DNA of 64,000 nt from Octopus sinensis. Lineage: Eukaryota. Positions 8,011 to 61,887 of this stretch are shown here, one piece after another. The DNA is taken from assembly GCF_006345805.1 (NCBI RefSeq), contig NC_043015.1:19778001-19842000 (forward strand). The letters run 5' to 3'. Position numbers and translations under genes: made by a program. Under the pieces are notes generated by a model that was given only the letters and a program-made list of their open reading frames with translations, was not told where the DNA came from and did not search any database. Positions within the stretch are counted from its first letter, which is position 1; the number at the start of each line of letters is the position of its first letter.

Positions 8011-9487
8011 GCAAAGAAGAAGCGGTAGAGAATTCTTTAGTTCCTCTCGACAGATAACAATATCCATGATGCTAGTCATCATCATCTGGCATGGGTTGGA
8101 CAATTTGACCGGGATGGCACACTGGAAGGCTGCACCAGACTCCAGTCTGATTTGGCATGATTTTTTCTATGGCTGGATGCTCTTTCTAACTCCAACCACT
8201 CCATGAGTGTAATGGTTGCTTTTATGTTCCACTGGCATGGGTGCCATTTGCATGATACCTGGGTGCTTTTACATGCCTCTGGCGTGGGTGCCATTTGCGT
8301 TACACCATTTTACATGCCACTGGCATGGGTATCATTTGTGTGACACCTGGGTGCTTTTATATGCCACTGGCATGGGTGCCATTTGCCTGACACCAGGGTG
8401 CTTTCACGTGTCACTGGCATGGGTGCCAATTTACATGACATTGGTATCTGCCACAATTCCGATTTTGCTCAGCTTGATGGCTCTTTTCCTCAAGCACAAC
8501 ATAATGCCAAAGGTCTCAGCCATTGCCTCCATGGGGCCCAACATTGTGCAACAATAAAATGCAGTTACTGCACTCTGCAAAATGATCATTGATAGGAAAT
8601 GCATTTAACCATAGGAGACATGCCAAAGAATGAATTGCATAAATGAGAGGTGAATTCCGCAAGCCACATCCATAGACCAGCTGTCTTGAAGGGCAGCAAC
8701 CTCAAATAGGATGATGGGTAGAGAGAAATTCATTAGTTCCAGTGTTGCAATAATGTGTAACACTGTCTAGATTGTAAGTCTAGATTGTAAGACAGGCATA
8801 ATACCAATGTTGGACGGTTTTCTCTGTTGTTCTGAGTAAAGCATGATAAAGTGAGCAGTTAAATATTTTCGCACTTAAATTACAGGGATGTAAGCAAACC
8901 ATCACTGGATGTCAAGCAGTTTGGTGGGAACTAACACACAAGCACACCATCACTTACACACCTGTAATCATCATCATCATCTTTTAATATCCATCTTCCA
9001 TGCTGACACAGGTTGCACAATTTGACAAGATCCAGACAGGTTCAAAGACTACATCATACTCCAATATCTGCTTGGGCATGGTTTCTATGGCTGGATGCCT
9101 TTCCTAATGCCAACCAATCTACAGAATGTACTGTGTGCTCCTTTTGTAGCACCTGCAAAATATGTATGTATGTACATATGTATGTATGTGTTGTGTTATG
9201 TTCAATAGGCTTCTTTAGAGTTTCCATTCACCAAATTCATTCACAATACATATAGGTCAACCCTGGTGCTGTAGTGGAAGACACTTGCCCTTGGTACCAC
9301 ACAGTGAGATGAAGTTAAAATAATAGAGAACACCACTGGAAAATGCGAAAAGTAAAAGAAGCAGCAGATATGCTAGGACACAACCTCCTAAGCAGACCTA
9401 GTGCAGATATGGATAGCATATGGGAACTGGTATTAAGGCAGGATAGGAGAATATTAGATTTATAAGCCCTAAAATTCACTCCATAAT

Positions 9488-9733
9488 TGCCCATGGGTAT
9501 ATGACGTGGTGGTTAAGAGTGTGGGCTACTAACCCCAAGATTCTGAGTTTGATTCCAGGCAGTAACCTGAATAATAATAATAATAATAATAATATCGAAA
9601 AAATACCTTAGGAATGAGAACCCAGGCTCGAAATTTCCCCAAGACACCTGACAAAGGCTGGAGGGTATATCAGCCGAAATGTTGTGTTAACAACAAACAA
9701 GATGAGGTCAGATATCTGTCAAATGTAAATAAT
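9488..9733 (+). mobile_element. tRNA-headed SINE-like element with a hammerhead-containing tail (copy 1)
   Basis: A-box-like tgacgtggtgg, B-box-like gagtttgattcc and a (TAA)n spacer. The tail contains GACAC-CTGACAA-A-GGCTG(10)CAGCC-GAAA-TG-TT-GTGTT at 9643-9688. Near-identical to 12751-12980. Confidence 0.75.
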
Positions 9734-10174
9734 GTTCAAAAACATGTTTACGAAATGAATTTCTTAATGACACAGCCAAGTTTGTGCCTATGTTATGCAA
9801 CATTTATTTTAATTTTGTGCTTTTTTCCCCCCAATTAAATAGCTAATGATGAACTGATTTAAATAATTGGGAGCCCACCCTTTTCCCAGTCAAACTCTTG
9901 GCTACACCCATAATTTATGCATAAGAGAGTATGTGTTTGTCTGCTTTGATAGATTCATGTATTTTCAAAGGTACCGTTAATACTATTCAATAAGTTTTAG
10001 TAGTATTTAAACACCTGGATACAATTAATTGTAAGGTGTTTCATTAATAATAAATACATACACTCTCTACTTAATATTGTACCGAGAGCTTTTTGTTGGT
10101 TAATAGTCTCCCTGACTTTCTTTTGAGATACACTCATACACAAACACACACACACACACACAGACATATATATA

Positions 10175-10214
<40 letters not shown>

Positions 10215-10216
<2 letters not shown>

Positions 10217-10474
10217 CATTATTGGTGAATTGAAGAAATGGAGCTGAACGCAGATTGAACAGAAATCGTTTTATTTCATTCTACACGTGCCTCGAAAGGC
10301 ACAAATTACCAAAATCCGACCGAACAACGGGACCACACTGTGTCTCTCTCCTCAGGAAGAAAAAAGGAAATCCGTTGGAAAAACAAAATCACTGCTGTGA
10401 TTTTTGCTACTAAGGTATCGGTTAAACTTTTGATTAATCCACTACAAGATTATTCATCTTTCTATTTCACATAA

Positions 10475-10478
<4 letters not shown>
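10215..10478 (-). mobile_element. Short non-autonomous element inside a (TA)n tract, carrying a degenerate hammerhead motif (10279-10358)
   Basis: The minus strand reads TTC-CTGAGGA-GAGAGACACA..TGTGCCTTTC-GAGG-CACGTG-TA-GAA, with GAAA changed to GAGG. (TA)n flanks both sides. Confidence 0.55.
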
Positions 10479-10510
<32 letters not shown>

Positions 10511-11337
10511 AACACACACTCTCATATATTGTTATTTGCAAGTAACAAAAAATAAGTATGAATCAATGGATTTAGTATTATTAATGTGTGTGTGTGTGTT
10601 GTGGAAATAAATAGGTAAACAATTCTTTCTCACAGCAAAAAATATGGGAGTAGCCATGCAGAAATAAATTAGAGCTAAACATCAAACCAAGCAACAACAA
10701 CAACAACAACACACACACACACACTCTCTCTCTCTCTCTCTCACACACACACTCTCTCTCTCTCACACACACGCACTCTCTCACACATGCACTGTCTCAC
10801 ACACGCACTCTCATACACACTCCCTCACTCACTTTCTCACTCTCTCTCTCTCACTCTCTCTATCTCTACCTCCCTCCCTCCCCCCTCTCTCTCAAGTCAC
10901 CGACACACCTCAAGCCCAACACTAGAATCCAGGTGATTAAACCTTCACCATTGTCACCAATCTTATAACTTTGTCATTGTCTTCAGAGATCCAACAATAA
11001 ATTTTCATAAAAAAAAAAACATCAAAGGAATTTCTTGACCGAATATCAGAAAAATTCAAATTACCATTAATTACTCAATTTGTGAACCAAAAATTTAAAT
11101 TCTTTTTTTATTGTTCTTTCTTTCTCCCACACCCCTCCCTTCCTCCTTCTCTTCATATTTCTTTTCTCCTTTCTTTTCTTTCTATTCTTTTCACTTTGTC
11201 TTCGTCTTACACCCCACCCAAGACAACTTTATTTTATCGACCCCAAAAGGATGAAACCAAAGTCCCAGTCAAGTACTGGATTCAATGATATCAATTAAAC
11301 CCCATTCCCTAAAAATCGCTGCCCTTGTGCCTTAACC

Positions 11338-11645
11338 TAGTGCTACTCAAAGTAGTGGTCTGTGGACCGGTGCCACACCTGCCAGGACCGGTGCCACACC
11401 TGCCAGGACGCAGCGAGTTTCCAGAAAAGAAAGAAACATAGAATGCTTATAAAATGCTTATGTAATATTGTATTATTTGTTTACAAAAGAAATATAAGAT
11501 AAAAAAAAACTTGTCAACTTTTAGTATATTCATTATATATATTGTTTCTGGTATAAATTAATATTACTAAGAAATATTACCGGTCCCTGGCACATTGGTA
11601 AAAAAAACTGCTAGTATGCCACATCAGATAGTTTGAGAAGCACTG
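11338..11645. mobile_element. hAT-type MITE
   Basis: TIRs tagtgctactcaaa / tttgagaagcactg. The 8-bp TSD is ccttaacc (11330-11337) / tcttaacc (11646-11653). There is an internal ~21-bp tandem duplication of ggaccggtgccacacctgcca. Confidence 0.75.
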
Positions 11646-11651
11646 TCTTAA

Positions 11652-12116
11652 CCCATTAACTGCCAAATTTTTTATTTATATTTTTTGGCTTTGCCATGTG
11701 TATTAGGAGTTAAAATAATATATAGTATTTAAATTTTCTTCACATGTGAATTATTTTGAAAATCATGATAAATTTTTCGAAAAGTCCCAAATGGAGATCG
11801 CTGAAAAAGTATATTTATCTTTTTTATTCAATTTCAATGATAAACATTTTAGTTTTTTTGGAAACTATAATATCAAATGTGAATGTGTAAGTTTTCAAAA
11901 CGATCGATATTTTTGTAGTTCAAAAATTGTGATTTATGACATAAAATGTCCTGTAGAATTAGCCAAAGCTAATAATGATAAACTTTAACTCCTAAATATT
12001 GTTAAACACACCTCTGCAAATGCAATGCGCATAAGCAATTCACTTTAAATACAACAAACAGCCAGCAGTGAGACTTTTTAGCAGATATCCAAATTGGGTT
12101 CATGGCAGGCAATGGG
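11652..12116. mobile_element. piggyBac-type MITE
   Basis: TTAA flanks both ends (11648-11651, 12117-12120). TIRs are cccattaactgcca / tggcaggcaatggg (2 mismatches), starting with CCC as in piggyBac. Confidence 0.75.
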
Positions 12117-12609
12117 TTAATAAGAAATCATGACTATTTTTAAGGCAATGTTAACATATTGAACAAAATACTTAGCAGTGTTTCTTCCAGCTCTTTATGT
12201 GCTGAGTTCAAATCCCATTGAGGTCAACTTTTCCTTGGATTTTTTCTGGGTCAATAAGATAAAGTACCATTGAAGTACTGGGGTCAATATAATCAACACA
12301 CCCCTTTCCACCCAAAACTCTGGCCTCATGCTTAATTTAGGAACAATTATTATTGAGACAAGTAAATTGTTCCTTTCTTTGGAAATTCTTACATCTAAAA
12401 GAATCAATGATTCTTAAAGTTCACAAATTTGAATAAATCAGAAATCTTTTTTTTTTAGAGTTCCACCTTCAAGGAATGCTCAAAATATCAGGATTTTTTC
12501 TTCAAGCTTACAAACTTATCCATATCTGCAGACATTACTCAAATATTACACAATGCTTCATACATATAACTCAAATATGCAAATCTACAAACTTATCCTC
12601 ATTTAGAAA

Positions 12610-12980
12610 CATTATTTGTCCTCATCTTGTTTGTTAACACATTTAGGCTGATATACCCTCCAGCCTTCATCAGGTGTCTTGGGGAAATTTCGAACCTGGG
12701 TTCTCATTCCTAAAGTATTTTTTTATGGTAACCTCTATGCCATATGCCCATGGGCATATGGCGTTGTGGTTAAGGGCATGGGCTACTAACCCCAAGATTC
12801 CGAGTTCGATTCCAGGCAGTGACCTGAATAATAATAATAATATCGAAAAATACCTTAGGAATGAAAACCCAGGTTCGAAATTTCCCCAAGACACCTGATG
12901 AATGCTGGAGGGTATATCAGCCGAAACGTTGTGTTAACAACAAACAAGATGAGGACAAATATCCGTCAAATGTACATAAT
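12610..12980 (+). mobile_element. Fold-back copy of the tRNA-headed, hammerhead-tailed element (copy 2 plus an inverted tail)
   Basis: 12613-12722 is the reverse complement of the tail at ~12846-12962. There is a perfect 24-bp palindrome gccatatgccca|tgggcatatggc at 12739-12762, an A-box tggcgttgtgg at 12759-12769 and a B-box gagttcgattcc at 12802-12813. Confidence 0.8.
12890..12935 (+). ncRNA. Minimal type-I hammerhead ribozyme motif, core intact
   Basis: GACAC-CTGATGA-A-TGCTG(GAGGGTATAT)CAGCC-GAAA-CG-TT-GTGTT. Stem I is GACAC/GTGTT, stem III is the ACGT palindrome and the cleavage triplet is GUU. The first stem II pair is mismatched here but reads GGCTG in the other two copies. Confidence 0.75.
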
Positions 12981-13644
12981 TCCTCATCTCTTATATATAG
13001 AACTGCAAAAGGGTTAAAATCTTGTAACACAAAGGCATTTGTAAGTAGAGTATTAACTTCGAAGTAAAAACATCCACTTCTCCATGCTTGCATACTTGAG
13101 ACAGGTTTTCTACCACCAGATGTCCTTCCTGTCACCAACCCTCACCTGTTTCCAAGCAAGGTAATATTTCCCCATAACCAGACATGTTTTCACGAAAGAT
13201 TGCAAATGAAAGACAATGCCTGTATGATGGTAATACATATTTACTATTATGTGATGTCAAGACAAAGTGTTTCCCCTCTTTAATGAGAACAGTCACCTGA
13301 CTCCCCTACAGCAAGAAATCTGTTGTGCTCTGGCACCTTCTTTCTTACTTTAACCCTTCGGCATAAAGCTACATCCCTCTCTACTTAGGCTTAGTGAAAG
13401 AGGATCTTAATCTTTGCATACTGTGTAGTGACCTCACTGGTGCTGGTGCCATGACAAAAACAAACACTCAATATACACTATAAAGTGAACAAAACCTGTG
13501 TAGAAGACTGTCTTACAGCTGAGGTTCAAAGACCCAAACTCATGCTTGTTTTACTTGAGAATTACATTCATGAAGGATAGATGAGTCTGAGCCACTTCAG
13601 CCACTTTGCACTATTGGACAGGAAAGTCACTCTGTGTGTGTGTT

Positions 13645-13683
<39 letters not shown>

Positions 13684-13685
13684 GT

Positions 13686-13980
13686 GGAGGCGCAATGGCC
13701 CAGTGGTTAGGGGAGCGGACTCACAGTTGTAGGATCGTGATTTCGATTCCCAGACCGGGCATTGTGAGTGTTTATTGAGCGAAAACACCTAAAGCTCCAC
13801 ACGGTTCCAGCAGTGGGTGGTGGAGATCCCTGTTGTACTCTTGCGCCACGACTTCTGTTGGCCTGCTCGCTTAGCCACCGGGGTGGCGTCATTTGAAGGC
13901 TAAAACAATGCGAAGCGCATTGTGACCAGCGATGTCTAGCAACTTCTGATAGCCTGGTCGGTCACGGTGATCACGGTGAT
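13686..13980 (+). mobile_element. tRNA-derived SINE (family A)
   Basis: ggaggcgcaatggcccagtggttagg..gatttcgattccc (A and B boxes). Related copies lie at 18686-19068 and ~58395-58690. Confidence 0.75.
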
Positions 13981-46500: not shown

Positions 46501-49500
46501 GGTTACCCAAGTACCTGATGCATCGAAGATTGTGCTTGCTGGTAAAGGCCTCAAAGAAGCAGTAGTCCGGGAAGAAGCAGAATTTCGTATTGATGGCTCA
46601 AAAGCAGGCCCAGGTACCAACATCATTATTAGTAACTTGTACATCACCACAAACATTTTCTGAATGCACACATATATACACATACACACATATACATGCA
46701 TACATATATTCACATGTAATACTTCATTTTTCCTAATTTTTTTTAGGTAAACCCGTGGTTAACCTTACAGGAGTACGCACAGACATTGATGTTGACGTTA
46801 TACCTCAGGGAAACAATTGCTACCGTTGCAAATACATGCCCATAATTCCTGGTGCTTACCTTTTGAATATCACTTGGAATGACAGGCAGCTGAAGGGTTC
46901 TCCCTATAAGATCACTATCATAGCAGCACCACAACCTCAGAAAGTAATGATCACAGGAGAAGGTCTTAAAGGAGGAATGATGGGTAAAGACCTACAGATG
47001 AACATCGACACACGGAAAGCTGGACTGGGTACGTAATTGAGAAAGTTTGTGTGTACACAGACACATTCAGTTATTAATGTTTGACTTGTTTGTATATGTC
47101 TTATCTACAGGTAATAGGAAGACAATTGTCATGCTGATGATGCTTGTTGAGGCAGAAACACATGTCCACCGCTGTCCTCTTATCTCCAGCCAATAAACCT
47201 GTCCTCTTCCTTAAATGACATATCCATTTCAGAAAACTCTTGATTCTTGAGATTATCTCCCCTTTTCAAGTGGAGCTGGTCTCAACTGTCATCTTGTAAT
47301 TAGGTTACATCGTCTAGAGGCAGAGGTTTTGTTAATAAACCACACATATACATATAATATAGGCTTGGTAGAGCAAACAGGATAAACAGAACTCAAATAA
47401 ATAAATATATTCTATTATTTTTATTATTAATATTTAGCAGAAATAACAGTGACTCAAGGTTCAAGAGTTTTATGCAGTGCCAACACATGAGACTCTCAGA
47501 CCATGAGTCACTCTGTTAAATATTAATAAAAATATACATATTCTTTTATTCTTTTACATGTTTCAGTCATTTGACAGCGGCCATGCTAGAGCACCGCCCT
47601 TAGTCAAACAAATCGACCCCTAGTACTTTTTCTATCGGTCTCTTTTGCCGAACTGTTAAGTTACTGGGATGTAAACACACCAGCATCGGTTGTCAAGCGA
47701 TGTTGGACACACACACATATACGACAGGCTTCTTTCAGTTTCCACCTATCAAATCCACTCAGAAGGTTTTGGTCGGCCCAAGGCCATAGAAGACAGTTGC
47801 CCAAGGTGCCATGCAGTGGGACTGAACCCAGAACCATGTGTTTGGTAAGCAAGCTACTTACTACACAGCCACTCCTGTGCCTATACTCTTATTTTGAGAC
47901 CTATTTTTCCTGTTTGCATCAACATACCTGTATAATCTATTATTATTAATTGACAGAAACTATAAAATGATTCAAGGCCAAAAATAACTAACCCTTACAC
48001 ACACACACACACACTAATCCTGAATAAGGATCAATAACCTATTTTTCTACCAGCCTATGTATATATTATGTATAAAAACATGCCCCCCCCCCTATCTCTC
48101 TACAACCACTATCCCAATTCCACCACTGGCAATGCTGATCTAAGTAAAACATAACCAAATTGTTGCACAAAAGCCAACAACTGCTCAATGACCCACAAAT
48201 ACATGAAATTAGAAAATTTTTATGAATAAAATTTCAAAGGCCTCAAGATAAAAACTTCCCATAGCCCAACAATTGTGGGCTGTGGCTCATCTGTTGCCAA
48301 CCATTGGCCTACACATTGCTTTTAAAGTTTTACTATGTAAAATAAATAAAATTCACTTTACAGTACACACGTATGATGAAATGATGACCATATTAATATT
48401 TCATATCCAGGCGAACTGACAGCACACTGCGTTGGGCCAAACGTCGTAGCATATTGTGAGCTTGCTGACAACCATGATGGAATCTACAAGCTAACAGTAC
48501 GACCACAGGAAGCAGGTAGACATGTTTTACAGATCAAGTATGGAGGTGATCATATATTAGGTAAGCAAATGTTCTATGCATTCTTGTATCATCATCATCA
48601 TCATCATCATCACAACAGTAACAAAGAGGTATGTTTAGAGCCCAGTCAATGTTTCTCGTCTCCTTTTCAAACTGGTGTTTATAACTTTATATATGGCTGT
48701 GTGCTCTCTCTCTCTCAAGTGTAACTGCCCAAAATGGTCATGACATCTGGTACTTGACTGAAGAAGGAAGGCCACGATTGACCCGTCTTTTTTAGCTTGT
48801 CCTAATTGTTGTTTCACATATATATATATACATATATACGATGGGCTTCTTTCAGTTTCTGTCTACCAAATCCATTCACAAGGGTTTGGTTGGCCTGAGG
48901 CTATAGTAAAAGACACTTGCGCATGGTGCCACACAGTGAGACTGAACCCAGAACCATGTGGTTGGTAAGCAAGCTACTTACCACACAGCCACTCCTATGC
49001 CTATATATATATATATAAAATGAACTGTTCCATGATAGAAATATCAACAACAACAACAACAAAAATCCATCTGGTGAGAGATAAACATCATTCAAAGGAC
49101 ACAATACATGTCTTTAAGTGCTATTAATAGTTTCATATGTTGAGAAATACCTGAAACATATTCATCAGGCACAAACCACATGTCATAACGAACTATGTTG
49201 TTTGTGCTTGATGAATATTTTTGAGGCATTTCTCAACATATGAAACTATTAATAGCACTTAAAGATATGTATTGTGTCCTTTAAATAACATATATATGTT
49301 TTATCTTTCTTTTGCTGGTTTCAGTCAGAGACTGGGATCATGCTGGAGCACTGCATTTCAAAATACTTGGGTTCTTTTTTTATGCTGTTTTGTCAAGTAG
49401 TGAGTTGGGTGGAGCTCCTCTTCTTTGTGCCTCCTCCTGTGATGTGGGTTCATCTGGTATCTCAGATGAAAATTTGTTCAGATGCTCTTTGAAGACCTCC

Positions 49501-60575: not shown

Positions 60576-61887
60576 CAAAGACATGACAGAAGTAAATAGA
60601 CACCCCATAAACCATTGTCTTATGTTTATTCTAACTTGTAAGGTTTATATTTTTTTTAATTGACTGACATTTTTATGATTCAGGTTCTATATGTGACTGT
60701 TTAATCATGCCTTCTACAAAAGAGGCCTTGGAACTGAATTTCAAAGAGGCCATATTATGGGTCATTTCGAAGGTAGACAGCATGAAATTGCCGAAAACCT
60801 TGAGACCCTGCATTCTACAGTTAATAGGGTGACTGTGCAATTCACCAGAGAGGGGAAGGAGTTCACATCACCTCACCCAGGTTGACCAAGGCTCTCTGAC
60901 AGGACCCTTCTCTTTATTAACAGAAGTGTGGAGGATAATCCTTGTTGCAAGGCCTCAGACATAGAAGAACACATTGATGGAAGTCCCAGAACAGCTGTCA
61001 GGTATCTCCACAAACTTGGTTACTATGGCAGAGCAGCAAGAAGGAAGCCACTTCTTCAACCAGCCAACATCAAGCAGAGAAAAGATTATGCCAGTGAGAT
61101 GGTGGAAAGACCACTGGCATCTTAGGACACTGTCATATCCTCTGATGTGTCCAGATTTGTTGTATTTCCTGATCAAGAATGTGATGTGAAAAGATTGCAT
61201 CCAACAATGAAATACGGCAGCTATTCTGTGATGGTTTGGGGAGCAATTTGGAGCAATGGTTGATCAGAGCTGGTGGAGTGTGAAGGAAACATAAACTCAG
61301 ATAAATATACACATATTTATCTGAGTTTATGTTTCCTTCACACTCCACCAGCTCTGATCAACCATTGCTCCAAATTGCTCCCCAAACCATCACAGAATAG
61401 CTGCCGTATTTCATTGCAGAAAGGACTCCTTCCAATCTTCTCCAGTGGTGAAATGGATTAAAGAAGACTCTTTATTTATGGAAGATGGGGCTCCTTGTCA
61501 CATGACTAAAATGACTCAAGATTTGTTGGATAAGAATGGTATTAAAAAACTTCCATGGCCAAGCCAGTCACCAAATATGAACCCTACTGAACACTTCTGA
61601 GACATAATGGACAGGACACTTCATAAAAAGAACAAGAAAGCATCTTCAAAGCCAGATCTTTTGAGATTACTGCATGAAACTTGACAAGAATTACCACAAC
61701 AGAATATTTGTCATCTGATCAGTAACATGACTAACAGGATCCTTGTGTTAAAAAATGCAAAGGGCATATCTACTAAATATTAAATATTCACATTATAACA
61801 ATTAATATATAATTTGAATGTATTATTTCAGATTTAAAGAAATTTTAATGATTATTAGGGTGTCTATTTACTTCTGTCATATCTGTG
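60576..61887 (+). mobile_element. Decayed Tc1-family (DD34E) DNA transposon in a PCCB intron
   Basis: 30-bp TIRs at 60576-60605 and 61858-61887, with TA on the left and CA on the right. Transposase relics include GRAARRKPLL, *DTVISSDVSRF, VMVWGAI, MEDGAPCH-(34 aa D-to-E spacing)-WPSQSPNMNPTEH and AKGISTKY*; multiple stops and frameshifts are present. Confidence 0.92.
61205..61416. repeat. Perfect 104-bp inverted duplication with a 4-nt loop inside the Tc1 transposase
   Basis: 61205-61308 is the exact reverse complement of 61313-61416; the loop is acac. Confidence 0.95.

What the first reader, a model, noticed from the sequence alone, without database searches (positions are those of the whole stretch)
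9488..12980. tRNA-promoter head fused to a hammerhead tail: a candidate ribozyme-bearing SINE
Seen: two near-identical ~240-nt copies (9488-9733 and 12751-12980). Each has an A-box (tggcgttgtgg) and B-box (gagttcgattcc) tRNA-like head, (TAA)n, and a ~140-nt tail containing GACAC-CTGATGA-A-GGCTG(10)CAGCC-GAAA-CG-TT-GTGTT. A third, inverted tail lies at 12613-12722. The three tails carry different lesions, some CpG-type, so their consensus is an intact hammerhead. Known: SINEs normally borrow 3' tails from LINEs; minimal hammerheads and inverted ends are PLE traits; the Schistosoma SM-alpha repeat is a precedent for a SINE-like element with a hammerhead. Inference: a Pol III-transcribed, self-cleaving SINE mobilised by a Penelope-like RT. 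I do not know of such an element described in cephalopods.
Basis: partly seen in the sequence, partly recalled or inferred. Interest (0 to 1): 0.85.

Follow-up and report, generated by a model that had tools for sequence, protein, structure and literature searches.

The report
Penelope retrotransposon with tRNA-gene promoter
The 'SINE' is the terminal repeat of a protein-coding Penelope-type jumping gene that carries a tRNA-derived promoter-like head and a hammerhead-ribozyme motif, and it is likely transcribed by RNA polymerase III, the enzyme that normally makes short non-coding RNAs.

Summary
The ~270-nt unit is the pseudo-LTR of a ~2.65-kb Penelope/Poseidon-type retrotransposon. It follows the RT + GIY-YIG ORF (22 of 22 loci that reach the ORF end) and precedes the ORF body (26 of 30 loci). 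The 'tail' is the first 51 codons of that ORF, with a minimal hammerhead inside. Window copy 1 still carries the endonuclease end.

The head aligns without gaps to this genome's tRNA-Arg(ACG) (47/73), A and B boxes in register. In 88 position-ordered copies, 5' ends pile up at the head start (42 of 66 at risk). Two ORF-containing copies also start there. The element's sense strand has no T4 run (Pol III terminator) in 2,652 nt (P 0.01-0.09 by null); a control PLE has 8 in 1.6 kb.

Likely mechanism: Pol III transcribes from the pLTR through the ORF. Internal RT initiation then yields about 20,000 SINE-like short copies plus truncated long ones. A recurrent 3-nt deletion at the predicted cut site hints at in-vivo cleavage. 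RNA data were uninformative and Pol III use is untested. Ten literature searches found no precedent.

The parts
9304..9465 (+). Last ~160 nt of the PLE ORF (GIY-YIG endonuclease C-terminus, stop 9463-9465); copy 1 is a 5'-truncated autonomous-type copy
   Evidence: majority q2187-2627 = window 9304-9741, 91%
9466..9494 (+). 29-nt spacer between ORF stop and tRNA +1; holds an imperfect fold-back of the head start and the inferred transcription start (about -6)
9495..9567 (+). Copy 1 tRNA-Arg-like head (A box 9502, B box 9547, both with CpG-type decay)
9568..9741 (+). Copy 1 (TAA)n leader, ORF start region and mutated hammerhead (9643-9688); ends at the +244 3'-end class
12613..12730 (-). Inverted, 5'-truncated arm of the same insertion as copy 2; hammerhead with G12->U and the recurrent 3-nt deletion at the cut site
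12729..12749 (-). Short inverted copy of the head's first ~21 nt (fold-back), forming a 24-bp palindrome at the start of copy 2
12746..13004 (+). Copy 2: complete solo pLTR unit, ending at the +268 3'-end class
12752..12824 (+). tRNA-Arg(ACG)-like head, 73 nt; A box 12759-12769, B box 12804-12812; cloverleaf lost
   Evidence: (47/73 ungapped for the family majority; copy 2 is 94.5% to it)
12827..12843 (+). (TAA)n tract in the 115-nt leader between tRNA +1 and ATG
12861..13004 (+). ATG and N-terminal codons of the PLE ORF (51 codons in the majority, 48 here), in frame with the RT-EN ORF in long copies
12890..12935 (+). Minimal type I hammerhead: stem I 12890-12894/12931-12935, core 12895, bulged A, stem II, GAAA 12923, palindromic ACGU in place of stem III, predicted cut after GUU 12930
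   Evidence: architecture as in PMC4209133

Best explanation
The unit is the pseudo-LTR of an autonomous Penelope/Poseidon-type retrotransposon whose promoter region is a captured tRNA-Arg-like head, and RNA polymerase III likely transcribes from it, likely through the whole 835-codon ORF. SHOWN: the order is ORF-stop, 29-nt spacer, 73-nt head, (TAA)n, ATG, 51 codons holding a minimal hammerhead, then the ORF body (RT, GIY-YIG EN). Copies are 5'-truncated, often head-to-head inverted, and have two 3' ends 24 nt apart. 5' ends pile up at the head start, and the sense strand has no T4 run. INFERRED: (1) Pol III starts about 6 nt upstream of tRNA +1 in the upstream pLTR of a partial tandem and reads on because no terminator is met. 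(2) The PLE protein starts reverse transcription internally at +244/+268, as shown in vitro for the anole Poseidon element. Starting in the 5' pLTR copies only the ~250-275 nt back to the RNA start and gives SINE-like solo units (about 20,000). Starting in the downstream pLTR gives 5'-truncated ORF copies such as window copy 1 (about 2,000 reach 170 nt into EN). (3) The hammerhead would cleave only as a dimer or with protein help, and only part of the RNA. RT jumping the cut on a 2-nt GU microhomology would leave the recurrent 3-nt deletion. (4) How an uncapped RNA is translated is unknown; the A-rich (TAA/CAA)n leader is a guess.
For: ORF link: 22 of 22 RT-selected loci that reach the EN end have the head next; 30 examined, 4 are near-duplicates of one locus; unit abuts the ORF body in 26 of 30; EN-unit-ORF tandems in L143, L144, L150. 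RT: PF00078 E 6.5e-9. Frame: 784 open codons plus 51 in the unit; 5 of 5 recurrent indels in the coding tail are 3 or 9 nt. Head: ungapped 47/73 to genomic tRNA-Arg(ACG), best score of 11 anticodon types on hand. 5' ends: per-nt hazard 4.6% at -18..+3 against 1.1% at +4..+30 and 0.1-0.5% upstream (binomial 7e-14); 17 of 20 copies with no neighbouring arm end at -7..+5. Read-through: L422 starts at -2 and runs 344 nt into the ORF body, L415 starts at +4 and runs about 910 nt (2 of 20 ORF-start loci). T-runs: 0 in 2,652 nt, shuffle mean 4.6 (P 0.009), synonymous shuffle 2.65 (P 0.038); natural copies 0.27/kb against 5.8/kb in a second PLE family of this genome. One master sequence for short and long copies. 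Cut-site deletion 38 of 307 arms (12 of 150 unbiased) against 0.7-0.8% background, scattered on a tree and unlinked to six common variants.
Against: No transcript-level support: three RNA runs showed no start pile-up at the head and no strand bias (libraries look unstranded, reads come from many old copies, and the reference copy has deletions in the unit). The T-run deficit is only modest under composition-aware nulls (Markov-1 P 0.086 on an earlier 2,596-nt majority; P 0.16 on a 429-codon part). The control PLE is Phe-rich, which explains most of its T-runs (synonymous expectation 7.7). A hairpin (-9.6 kcal/mol) spans the inferred start and could promote RT stops or fold-back there without any promoter. 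0 of 88 head copies ran on into the ORF body, and no intact copy starting at the head and holding the whole ORF was found. Pol III RNAs are normally short and uncapped. 5' ends near the cut site are confounded by microhomology, and DNA slippage could make the 3-nt deletion. All copies seen are decayed (about 5% non-CpG divergence).
Confidence: 0.62

Rival explanations
1. Two transcription units. Pol III makes only the short unit, which multiplies as a PLE-dependent SINE (solo copies templating more solo copies), while the ORF mRNA comes from Pol II (a promoter in the pLTR or host read-through).
For: Solo units outnumber EN-linked ones about 10:1. 0 of 88 head copies run into the ORF. Drosophila Penelope has a LINE-like internal promoter with Inr/DPE (PMC2377424, passages). 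Tandem solo units without ORF exist (L019).
Against: No SINE-specific subfamily: solo and EN-linked units share one majority and keep the ATG frame. Copies starting at the head do run into the ORF. The ORF itself lacks T4 runs.
Confidence: 0.22
2. The head is an inert relic: a tRNA or SINE head inserted once into the pLTR and hitchhiked. The 5'-end pile-up comes from the hairpin/palindrome at the junction (RT stop, fold-back, annealing of two cDNAs), not from a transcription start.
For: 54 of 88 head copies have an adjacent inverted arm by script (a few are only (TAA)n matches). The junction is self-complementary. The head is about as close to another SINE head of this genome (45/65) as to tRNA-Arg (46/67). 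No RNA start seen.
Against: 17 of 20 copies without any inverted arm also end at -7..+5, beyond the 3' foot of the hairpin (about +10) where a stall would be expected. A and B boxes are intact in the majority while the stems are broken. The T-run deficit is left unexplained.
Confidence: 0.11
3. One reading: an independent SINE with a tRNA head that borrowed the hammerhead tail of a separate, headless PLE.
For: Tens of thousands of short head+tail copies exist.
Against: Every ORF copy that reaches its end carries the head (22 of 22), and no headless donor sharing the tail was seen in any locus set.
Confidence: 0.05

Closest known systems
Penelope/Poseidon PLEs, e.g. PAc (Poseidon_Ac) of Anolis (PMC11167929; first two of four text parts read) and D. 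virilis Penelope (PMC2377424; passages)
   Same: Single RT + C-terminal GIY-YIG ORF, pLTR partial tandems, inverted 5'-truncated arms, two 3' ends ('tail'), hammerhead overlapping the ORF start.
   Different: Here the pLTR begins with a tRNA-derived A/B-box head and the element lacks T4 runs. Penelope's mapped promoter is LINE-like (Inr/DPE). The 'tail' is 24 nt here, against 30-40 nt.
Helenus / Cassandra / Ajax ('TRIMp3'; PMC10886601, passages)
   Same: A tRNA- or 5S-derived Pol III promoter embedded in the terminal repeat of a retroelement.
   Different: Those are non-autonomous LTR elements of at most ~1.3 kb. The author argues their autonomous partners must use Pol II and are unlikely to share the LTR. 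Here the promoter sits in an ORF-encoding PLE.
Schistosoma SM-alpha / Sj-alpha (via review PMC6765202 and PMC8490949, passages; originals not read)
   Same: Short repeat joining a Pol III-type promoter with a type I hammerhead.
   Different: Canonical hammerhead, non-coding, tandem; per the review single cleaved copies lose the promoter; the passages read give no link to a PLE ORF.
Non-LTR retrozymes (PMC7229834, passages; bioRxiv 10.64898/2026.07.22.740005, parts 1-3 of 5 read)
   Same: Non-coding hammerhead units related to PLE pLTRs.
   Different: Head-to-tail arrays making circRNA, with no tRNA promoter described. Here units are dispersed, mostly solo or head-to-head.
Octopus tRNA-derived SINEs OK/OR1/OR2 (Ohshima & Okada 1994; paper not held; OR1 named a CORE-SINE in PMC4824008; tRNA-Arg origin of OR1/OR2 is recalled)
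   Same: tRNA-derived head in an octopus-like genome; one SINE head from this genome is 45/65 identical.
   Different: No CORE-like body follows the head here; an ORF start with a hammerhead does. The published OR1/OR2 sequences could not be compared.

Membership tests
EN+ Penelope-like element, Penelope/Poseidon clade | Single ORF with RT and C-terminal GIY-YIG EN | tested here: met
   PF00078 E 6.5e-9; 784+51 open codons in the majority. The EN was recognised by motif and by homologues, one labelled GIY-YIG; Pfam gave no hit on the EN piece.
EN+ Penelope-like element, Penelope/Poseidon clade | DKG motif and CCHH finger present; CX2-5CxxC linker absent (PMC8557442) | tested here: met
   Read by eye in the translation: DKG present, two Cys between the GIY- and YIG-like motifs, no linker finger. 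The control family has the linker.
EN+ Penelope-like element, Penelope/Poseidon clade | pLTR/partial tandems, inverted 5'-truncated arms, 'tail' extension | tested here: met
   3' ends cluster at +235-244 (39 of 88) and +265-268 (27 of 88).
EN+ Penelope-like element, Penelope/Poseidon clade | Placement by RT phylogeny against reference clades | not tested
   No named reference PLE set on hand; the clade call rests on motifs.
PLE minimal hammerhead (PMC4209133) | CUGANGA, one unpaired base before stem II, G10.1-C11.1, GAAA, short stem I, palindromic 15.2-16.2, NUH | tested here: met
   A monomer stem III is impossible (2-nt loop); the AACGUU self-duplex is -3.5 kcal/mol.
PLE minimal hammerhead (PMC4209133) | Self-cleavage | not testable with these tools
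   Only indirect: deletion hot spot at the site.
tRNA-derived SINE (SINE2) | tRNA-derived head with A and B boxes | tested here: met
tRNA-derived SINE (SINE2) | Non-autonomous family separate from its RT donor | tested here: not met
   The same unit is the pLTR and ORF start of the autonomous element; no separate subfamily.
tRNA-derived SINE (SINE2) | LINE-type 3' tail and target-site duplications | tested here: inconclusive
   No poly(A) or repeat tail; 2 of 7 testable solo copies share 9-11 nt between flanks.
tRNA-derived SINE (SINE2) | Pol III transcription | tested here: inconclusive
   Genomic 5'-end pile-up and T-run deficit support it; the RNA lay was uninformative.
Non-LTR retrozyme | Head-to-tail tandem arrays of hammerhead monomers | tested here: not met
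   5 of 88 have an adjacent direct piece against 54 inverted.
Functional tRNA gene | Cloverleaf / covariance-model match | tested here: not met
   Window copies only.

The most novel reading that the evidence does not exclude
An autonomous, protein-coding retrotransposon transcribed end to end (~2.9 kb) by RNA polymerase III from a tRNA-derived internal promoter, purged of T4 terminators, whose internal reverse-transcription start sheds its own SINE: a LINE-like and a SINE-like element from one transcript, with genomic scars of in-vivo hammerhead cleavage.
Probability: 0.5. Interest if true: 0.9.

Novelty: new variant of a known kind. Interest (0 to 1): 0.77.

Why it matters
The usual division is that autonomous retrotransposons use Pol II, and that Pol III promoters belong to short non-autonomous parasites (SINEs, TRIMp3); PMC10886601 states this expectation explicitly. 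This family puts a tRNA-type promoter directly in front of an 835-codon RT-EN ORF. If confirmed, it would be a natural Pol III-made mRNA, raising the question of cap-independent translation. It would also show a direct route by which a SINE-like family is born from the element that mobilises it, and supply a first genomic footprint of PLE hammerhead cleavage in vivo, which PMC4209133 and PMC11167929 could not show. Practically, about 20,000 copies that pipelines would call 'unclassified SINE' are PLE pLTRs.

Tried and rejected
Rfam and ARAGORN gave no tRNA or hammerhead call on the window copies; the Rfam hits are microsatellite-driven miRNA models.

Sequencing runs: no RNA holder listed. Laying three RNA runs and one contig set on L126 gave equal depth for both first-mate directions, depth falling toward the element's 5' end like DNA copy number, only 27 of 8,873 reads at least 99% alike in X21, and no start or end pile-up at the head or cut site. 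This is uninformative, not negative: the libraries look unstranded and the reference lacks parts of the unit.

5'-truncation pile-up at the hammerhead cut site: 15 arms start at +179..+190, but several are explained by microhomology with the A box or a palindrome, so this was rejected as evidence.

The cut-site deletion being commoner in EN-linked copies: P 0.048 in all loci but P 1.0 in unbiased loci, so not supported. A sub-master origin of the deletion was not supported, though the tree is star-like and its carriers were defined loosely (2-3 gap letters near the site).

Relatives in metagenome contigs: 9 distant loci (29-51% identity); a simple A/B-box pattern matched none, so there is no evidence the head is clade-wide. 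The 60-67% identical ENA proteins have no DNA context here.

Head donor: tRNA-Arg(ACG) against another SINE head is unresolved; only 11 anticodon types were compared. The first two majority builds lost indels and were replaced. Earlier-findings look-ups returned nothing. Two papers were not held. Dfam, Repbase and SINEBase could not be searched.
Full report
OBSERVATION. The two direct copies and the inverted tail are as described. The genome is 2.7 Gb; the closest named homologue of the element's protein is an Octopus sinensis entry at 73% identity, so an octopus is likely. The family is genome-wide. Exact 18-mers occur 5,870 times for the head, 12,837 for the tail and 920 for the endonuclease end 170 nt upstream of the head, with reversed controls 0. 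With exact-match rates of 21/83, 38/102 and 16/37, this gives roughly 23,000, 34,000 and 2,100 copies. Four of 40 arbitrary 10-kb stretches held pieces. In 88 head occurrences from 90 loci taken in positional order along the first 60 Mb of C1 (selected only for the exact 18-mer), 77 carry the tail.

WHAT IT IS. Eight of the first 30 loci shared window copy 1's upstream flank, which translates as a PLE endonuclease C-terminus. Walking upstream recovered RT (PF00078, E 6.5e-9) and the ORF start. Of 30 RT-selected loci (four are near-duplicates of one), 22 reach the end of the EN and all 22 have the head next; 21 also show the tail. Of 30 loci selected on the ORF-body start, 26 have the unit's 3' end directly in front, and three show EN-unit-ORF tandem junctions. 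A column majority of 83 fragments is 2,652 nt with 784 open codons. The in-frame ATG lies inside the unit and adds 51 codons (window 12861), and the five recurrent indels in that stretch are all 3 or 9 nt. So the unit is the pLTR: 29 nt after the stop codon comes a 115-nt leader (73-nt head, (TAA)n), then the ORF start with the hammerhead inside it, as in the anole Poseidon element (PMC11167929). PLE hallmarks are present: adjacent inverted arms in 54 of 88 by script (a few only (TAA)n matches) and two 3' ends, +235-244 (39) and +265-268 (27). Motifs read by eye (DKG, CCHH, no linker finger) fit the Penelope/Poseidon clade as defined in PMC8557442; no reference phylogeny was run.

THE HEAD. 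It aligns without gaps to this genome's tRNA-Arg(ACG), 47 of 73, the best score of 11 anticodon types on hand, with A and B boxes in register. The window copies fail ARAGORN and Rfam. A different SINE head in the genome is about as close (45/65 against 46/67), so the immediate donor is unresolved.

IS IT A PROMOTER? Among the 88 copies, 22 end at +4..+30, 42 of the remaining 66 end at -18..+3, one at -22, and 23 run into the EN. Per-nt hazards are 1.1%, 4.6%, 0.1% and 0.3-0.5% (binomial 7e-14). Of 20 copies with no neighbouring family arm, 17 end at -7..+5, and three inverted arms stop at -6. I infer an RNA 5' end near G(-6), 13 nt upstream of the A box, which fits Pol III (own knowledge). A hairpin over the same junction is a rival cause, but a stall would be expected near its 3' foot at about +10.

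Two of 20 ORF-start loci begin at the head with no family sequence upstream and run into the ORF body: L422 from -2 for 344 nt and L415 from +4 for about 910 nt. Against this, 0 of 88 head-selected copies do so, and no complete head-to-end copy was found.

The sense strand of the majority has no run of four or more T in 2,652 nt, against 31 A-runs. The mononucleotide shuffle mean is 4.6 (P 0.009), the synonymous-codon shuffle 2.65 (P 0.038), and 3.9 with Phe codons freed (P 0.011). A first-order Markov null on an earlier build gave only P 0.086. Natural copies have 19 runs in 69.6 kb (58 fragments) against 216 in 37.2 kb (25 copies) for a second, Neptune-like PLE of this genome; that control is Phe-rich, which accounts for its runs. 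Distant relatives from other organisms have 8 in 1,170, 5 in 1,180, 0 in 490 and 0 in 300 nt, and homologous proteins have similarly low Phe (2.2-3.8%). This supports, but does not prove, Pol III read-through of the ORF. RNA-seq could not decide (see Tried and rejected).

SINE OR NOT. Comparing 82 head-start with 66 EN-linked units found no diagnostic substitution beyond alignment-edge positions and selection-biased deletions. The simplest account uses the internal RT initiation shown in vitro for PAc (PMC11167929): on one RNA holding two pLTRs, initiation in the first gives a solo unit ending at the RNA start, and initiation in the second gives truncated ORF copies. Solo copies keep the boxes and the initiation sites, so they may also template themselves; not tested.

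THE HAMMERHEAD. The majority has the PLE minimal architecture of PMC4209133: intact core, bulged A, G10.1-C11.1, 5-bp stem I, and ACGU in place of stem III, so it would need a dimer. A 2-4-nt deletion at the predicted cut site occurs in 38 of 307 arms (12 of 150 in unbiased loci) against 0.7-0.8% per 6-nt window. It is the top window in the element apart from the fold-back junction artefact at -8, and the highest of 176 sites with the same microhomology geometry (mean 0.3%, next 5.6%). Counted strictly as a 3-nt loss it is 29 of 288, and 7 of 139 unbiased. Carriers are scattered (15 changes for 16 carriers among 58, shuffled mean 14.0; star-like tree) and unlinked to six common variants. RT jumping the cut on a GU microhomology would give exactly this allele; DNA slippage is the rival. 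Window copy 3 carries it.

COMPARISON AND NOVELTY. It is a member of the EN+ PLEs and works in part like a SINE, but fails the non-autonomy test for SINE2. The nearest analogues for a Pol III promoter in a terminal repeat are Helenus, Cassandra and Ajax, all short and non-autonomous (PMC10886601, passages). For promoter plus hammerhead, the nearest is SM-alpha (review passages). Ten full-text searches gave, by listing and the passages read, no PLE with a tRNA-derived head; (Penelope + tRNA-like + pol III + retrotransposon) returned 0 papers. A 2026 O. vulgaris repeat annotation has no mention of hammerheads in its text or one supplement, nor of pLTRs in the supplement; its repeat library was not available. 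Subscription papers, bioRxiv supplements, Repbase, Dfam and SINEBase were not searchable, so the family may be catalogued, perhaps as a SINE or a plain Penelope. PMC13725137 (abstract only) reports that ribozyme cleavage can drive cap-independent translation in viral UTRs; here the cut lies downstream of the ATG, so it does not transfer directly.

VERDICT. Architecture: near certain. RNA start at the head by Pol III: about 0.8. Pol III making the ORF mRNA: about 0.5. New variant of a known kind; interest 0.77.

Noticed in passing
window 49081-49295: 101-bp inverted repeat whose arms hold a decayed hammerhead-like motif (core at 49168, minus strand) with a longer palindromic stem III; probably a head-to-head pLTR pair of another PLE family.
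   Followed up: no
window 61187-61434: 122-bp near-perfect inverted repeat with a 4-nt spacer (93%); the sequence looks coding-derived.
   Followed up: no
window 47134 (+) and 31155 (-): Isolated CUGAUGA...GAAAC motifs without convincing stems; probably chance.
   Followed up: partly
window 13680-13900; 14336, 23662, 27330, 31714 and others: Two other abundant tRNA-headed SINE families (32 and 146 copies in the loci held); their heads are less similar to this element's head.
   Followed up: partly
G000:C2:3.12-3.16 Mb (L395-L412): Tandem array of about 90 tRNA-Arg(ACG) matches with a ~206-bp period; tRNA-Asn matches cluster similarly at C18:42.0 Mb.
   Followed up: no
L187-L211: A second, younger Neptune-like PLE family (94-97% protein identity among the best copies, open frames up to 923 aa) with no hammerhead or A/B-box head noticed at its 3' end; used as T-run control.
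   Followed up: partly
L413-L432: Many copies holding the ORF start end inside the ORF, 6 of 20 at +495..+523; may mark a further RT initiation site, but the query ended at +501, so selection may explain it.
   Followed up: no
unit +9..+22 and +182..+192: The A-box region resembles the sequence at the hammerhead cut site, and several inverted junctions join these two places by microhomology.
   Followed up: partly
L091-L094, L126-L130: One near-full-length copy lies in a segment present at least four times at 97-100% identity including flanks (segmental duplication or unmerged haplotigs).
   Followed up: no
L173: Cluster of tRNA-Cys genes including a variant with an ACA anticodon.
   Followed up: no
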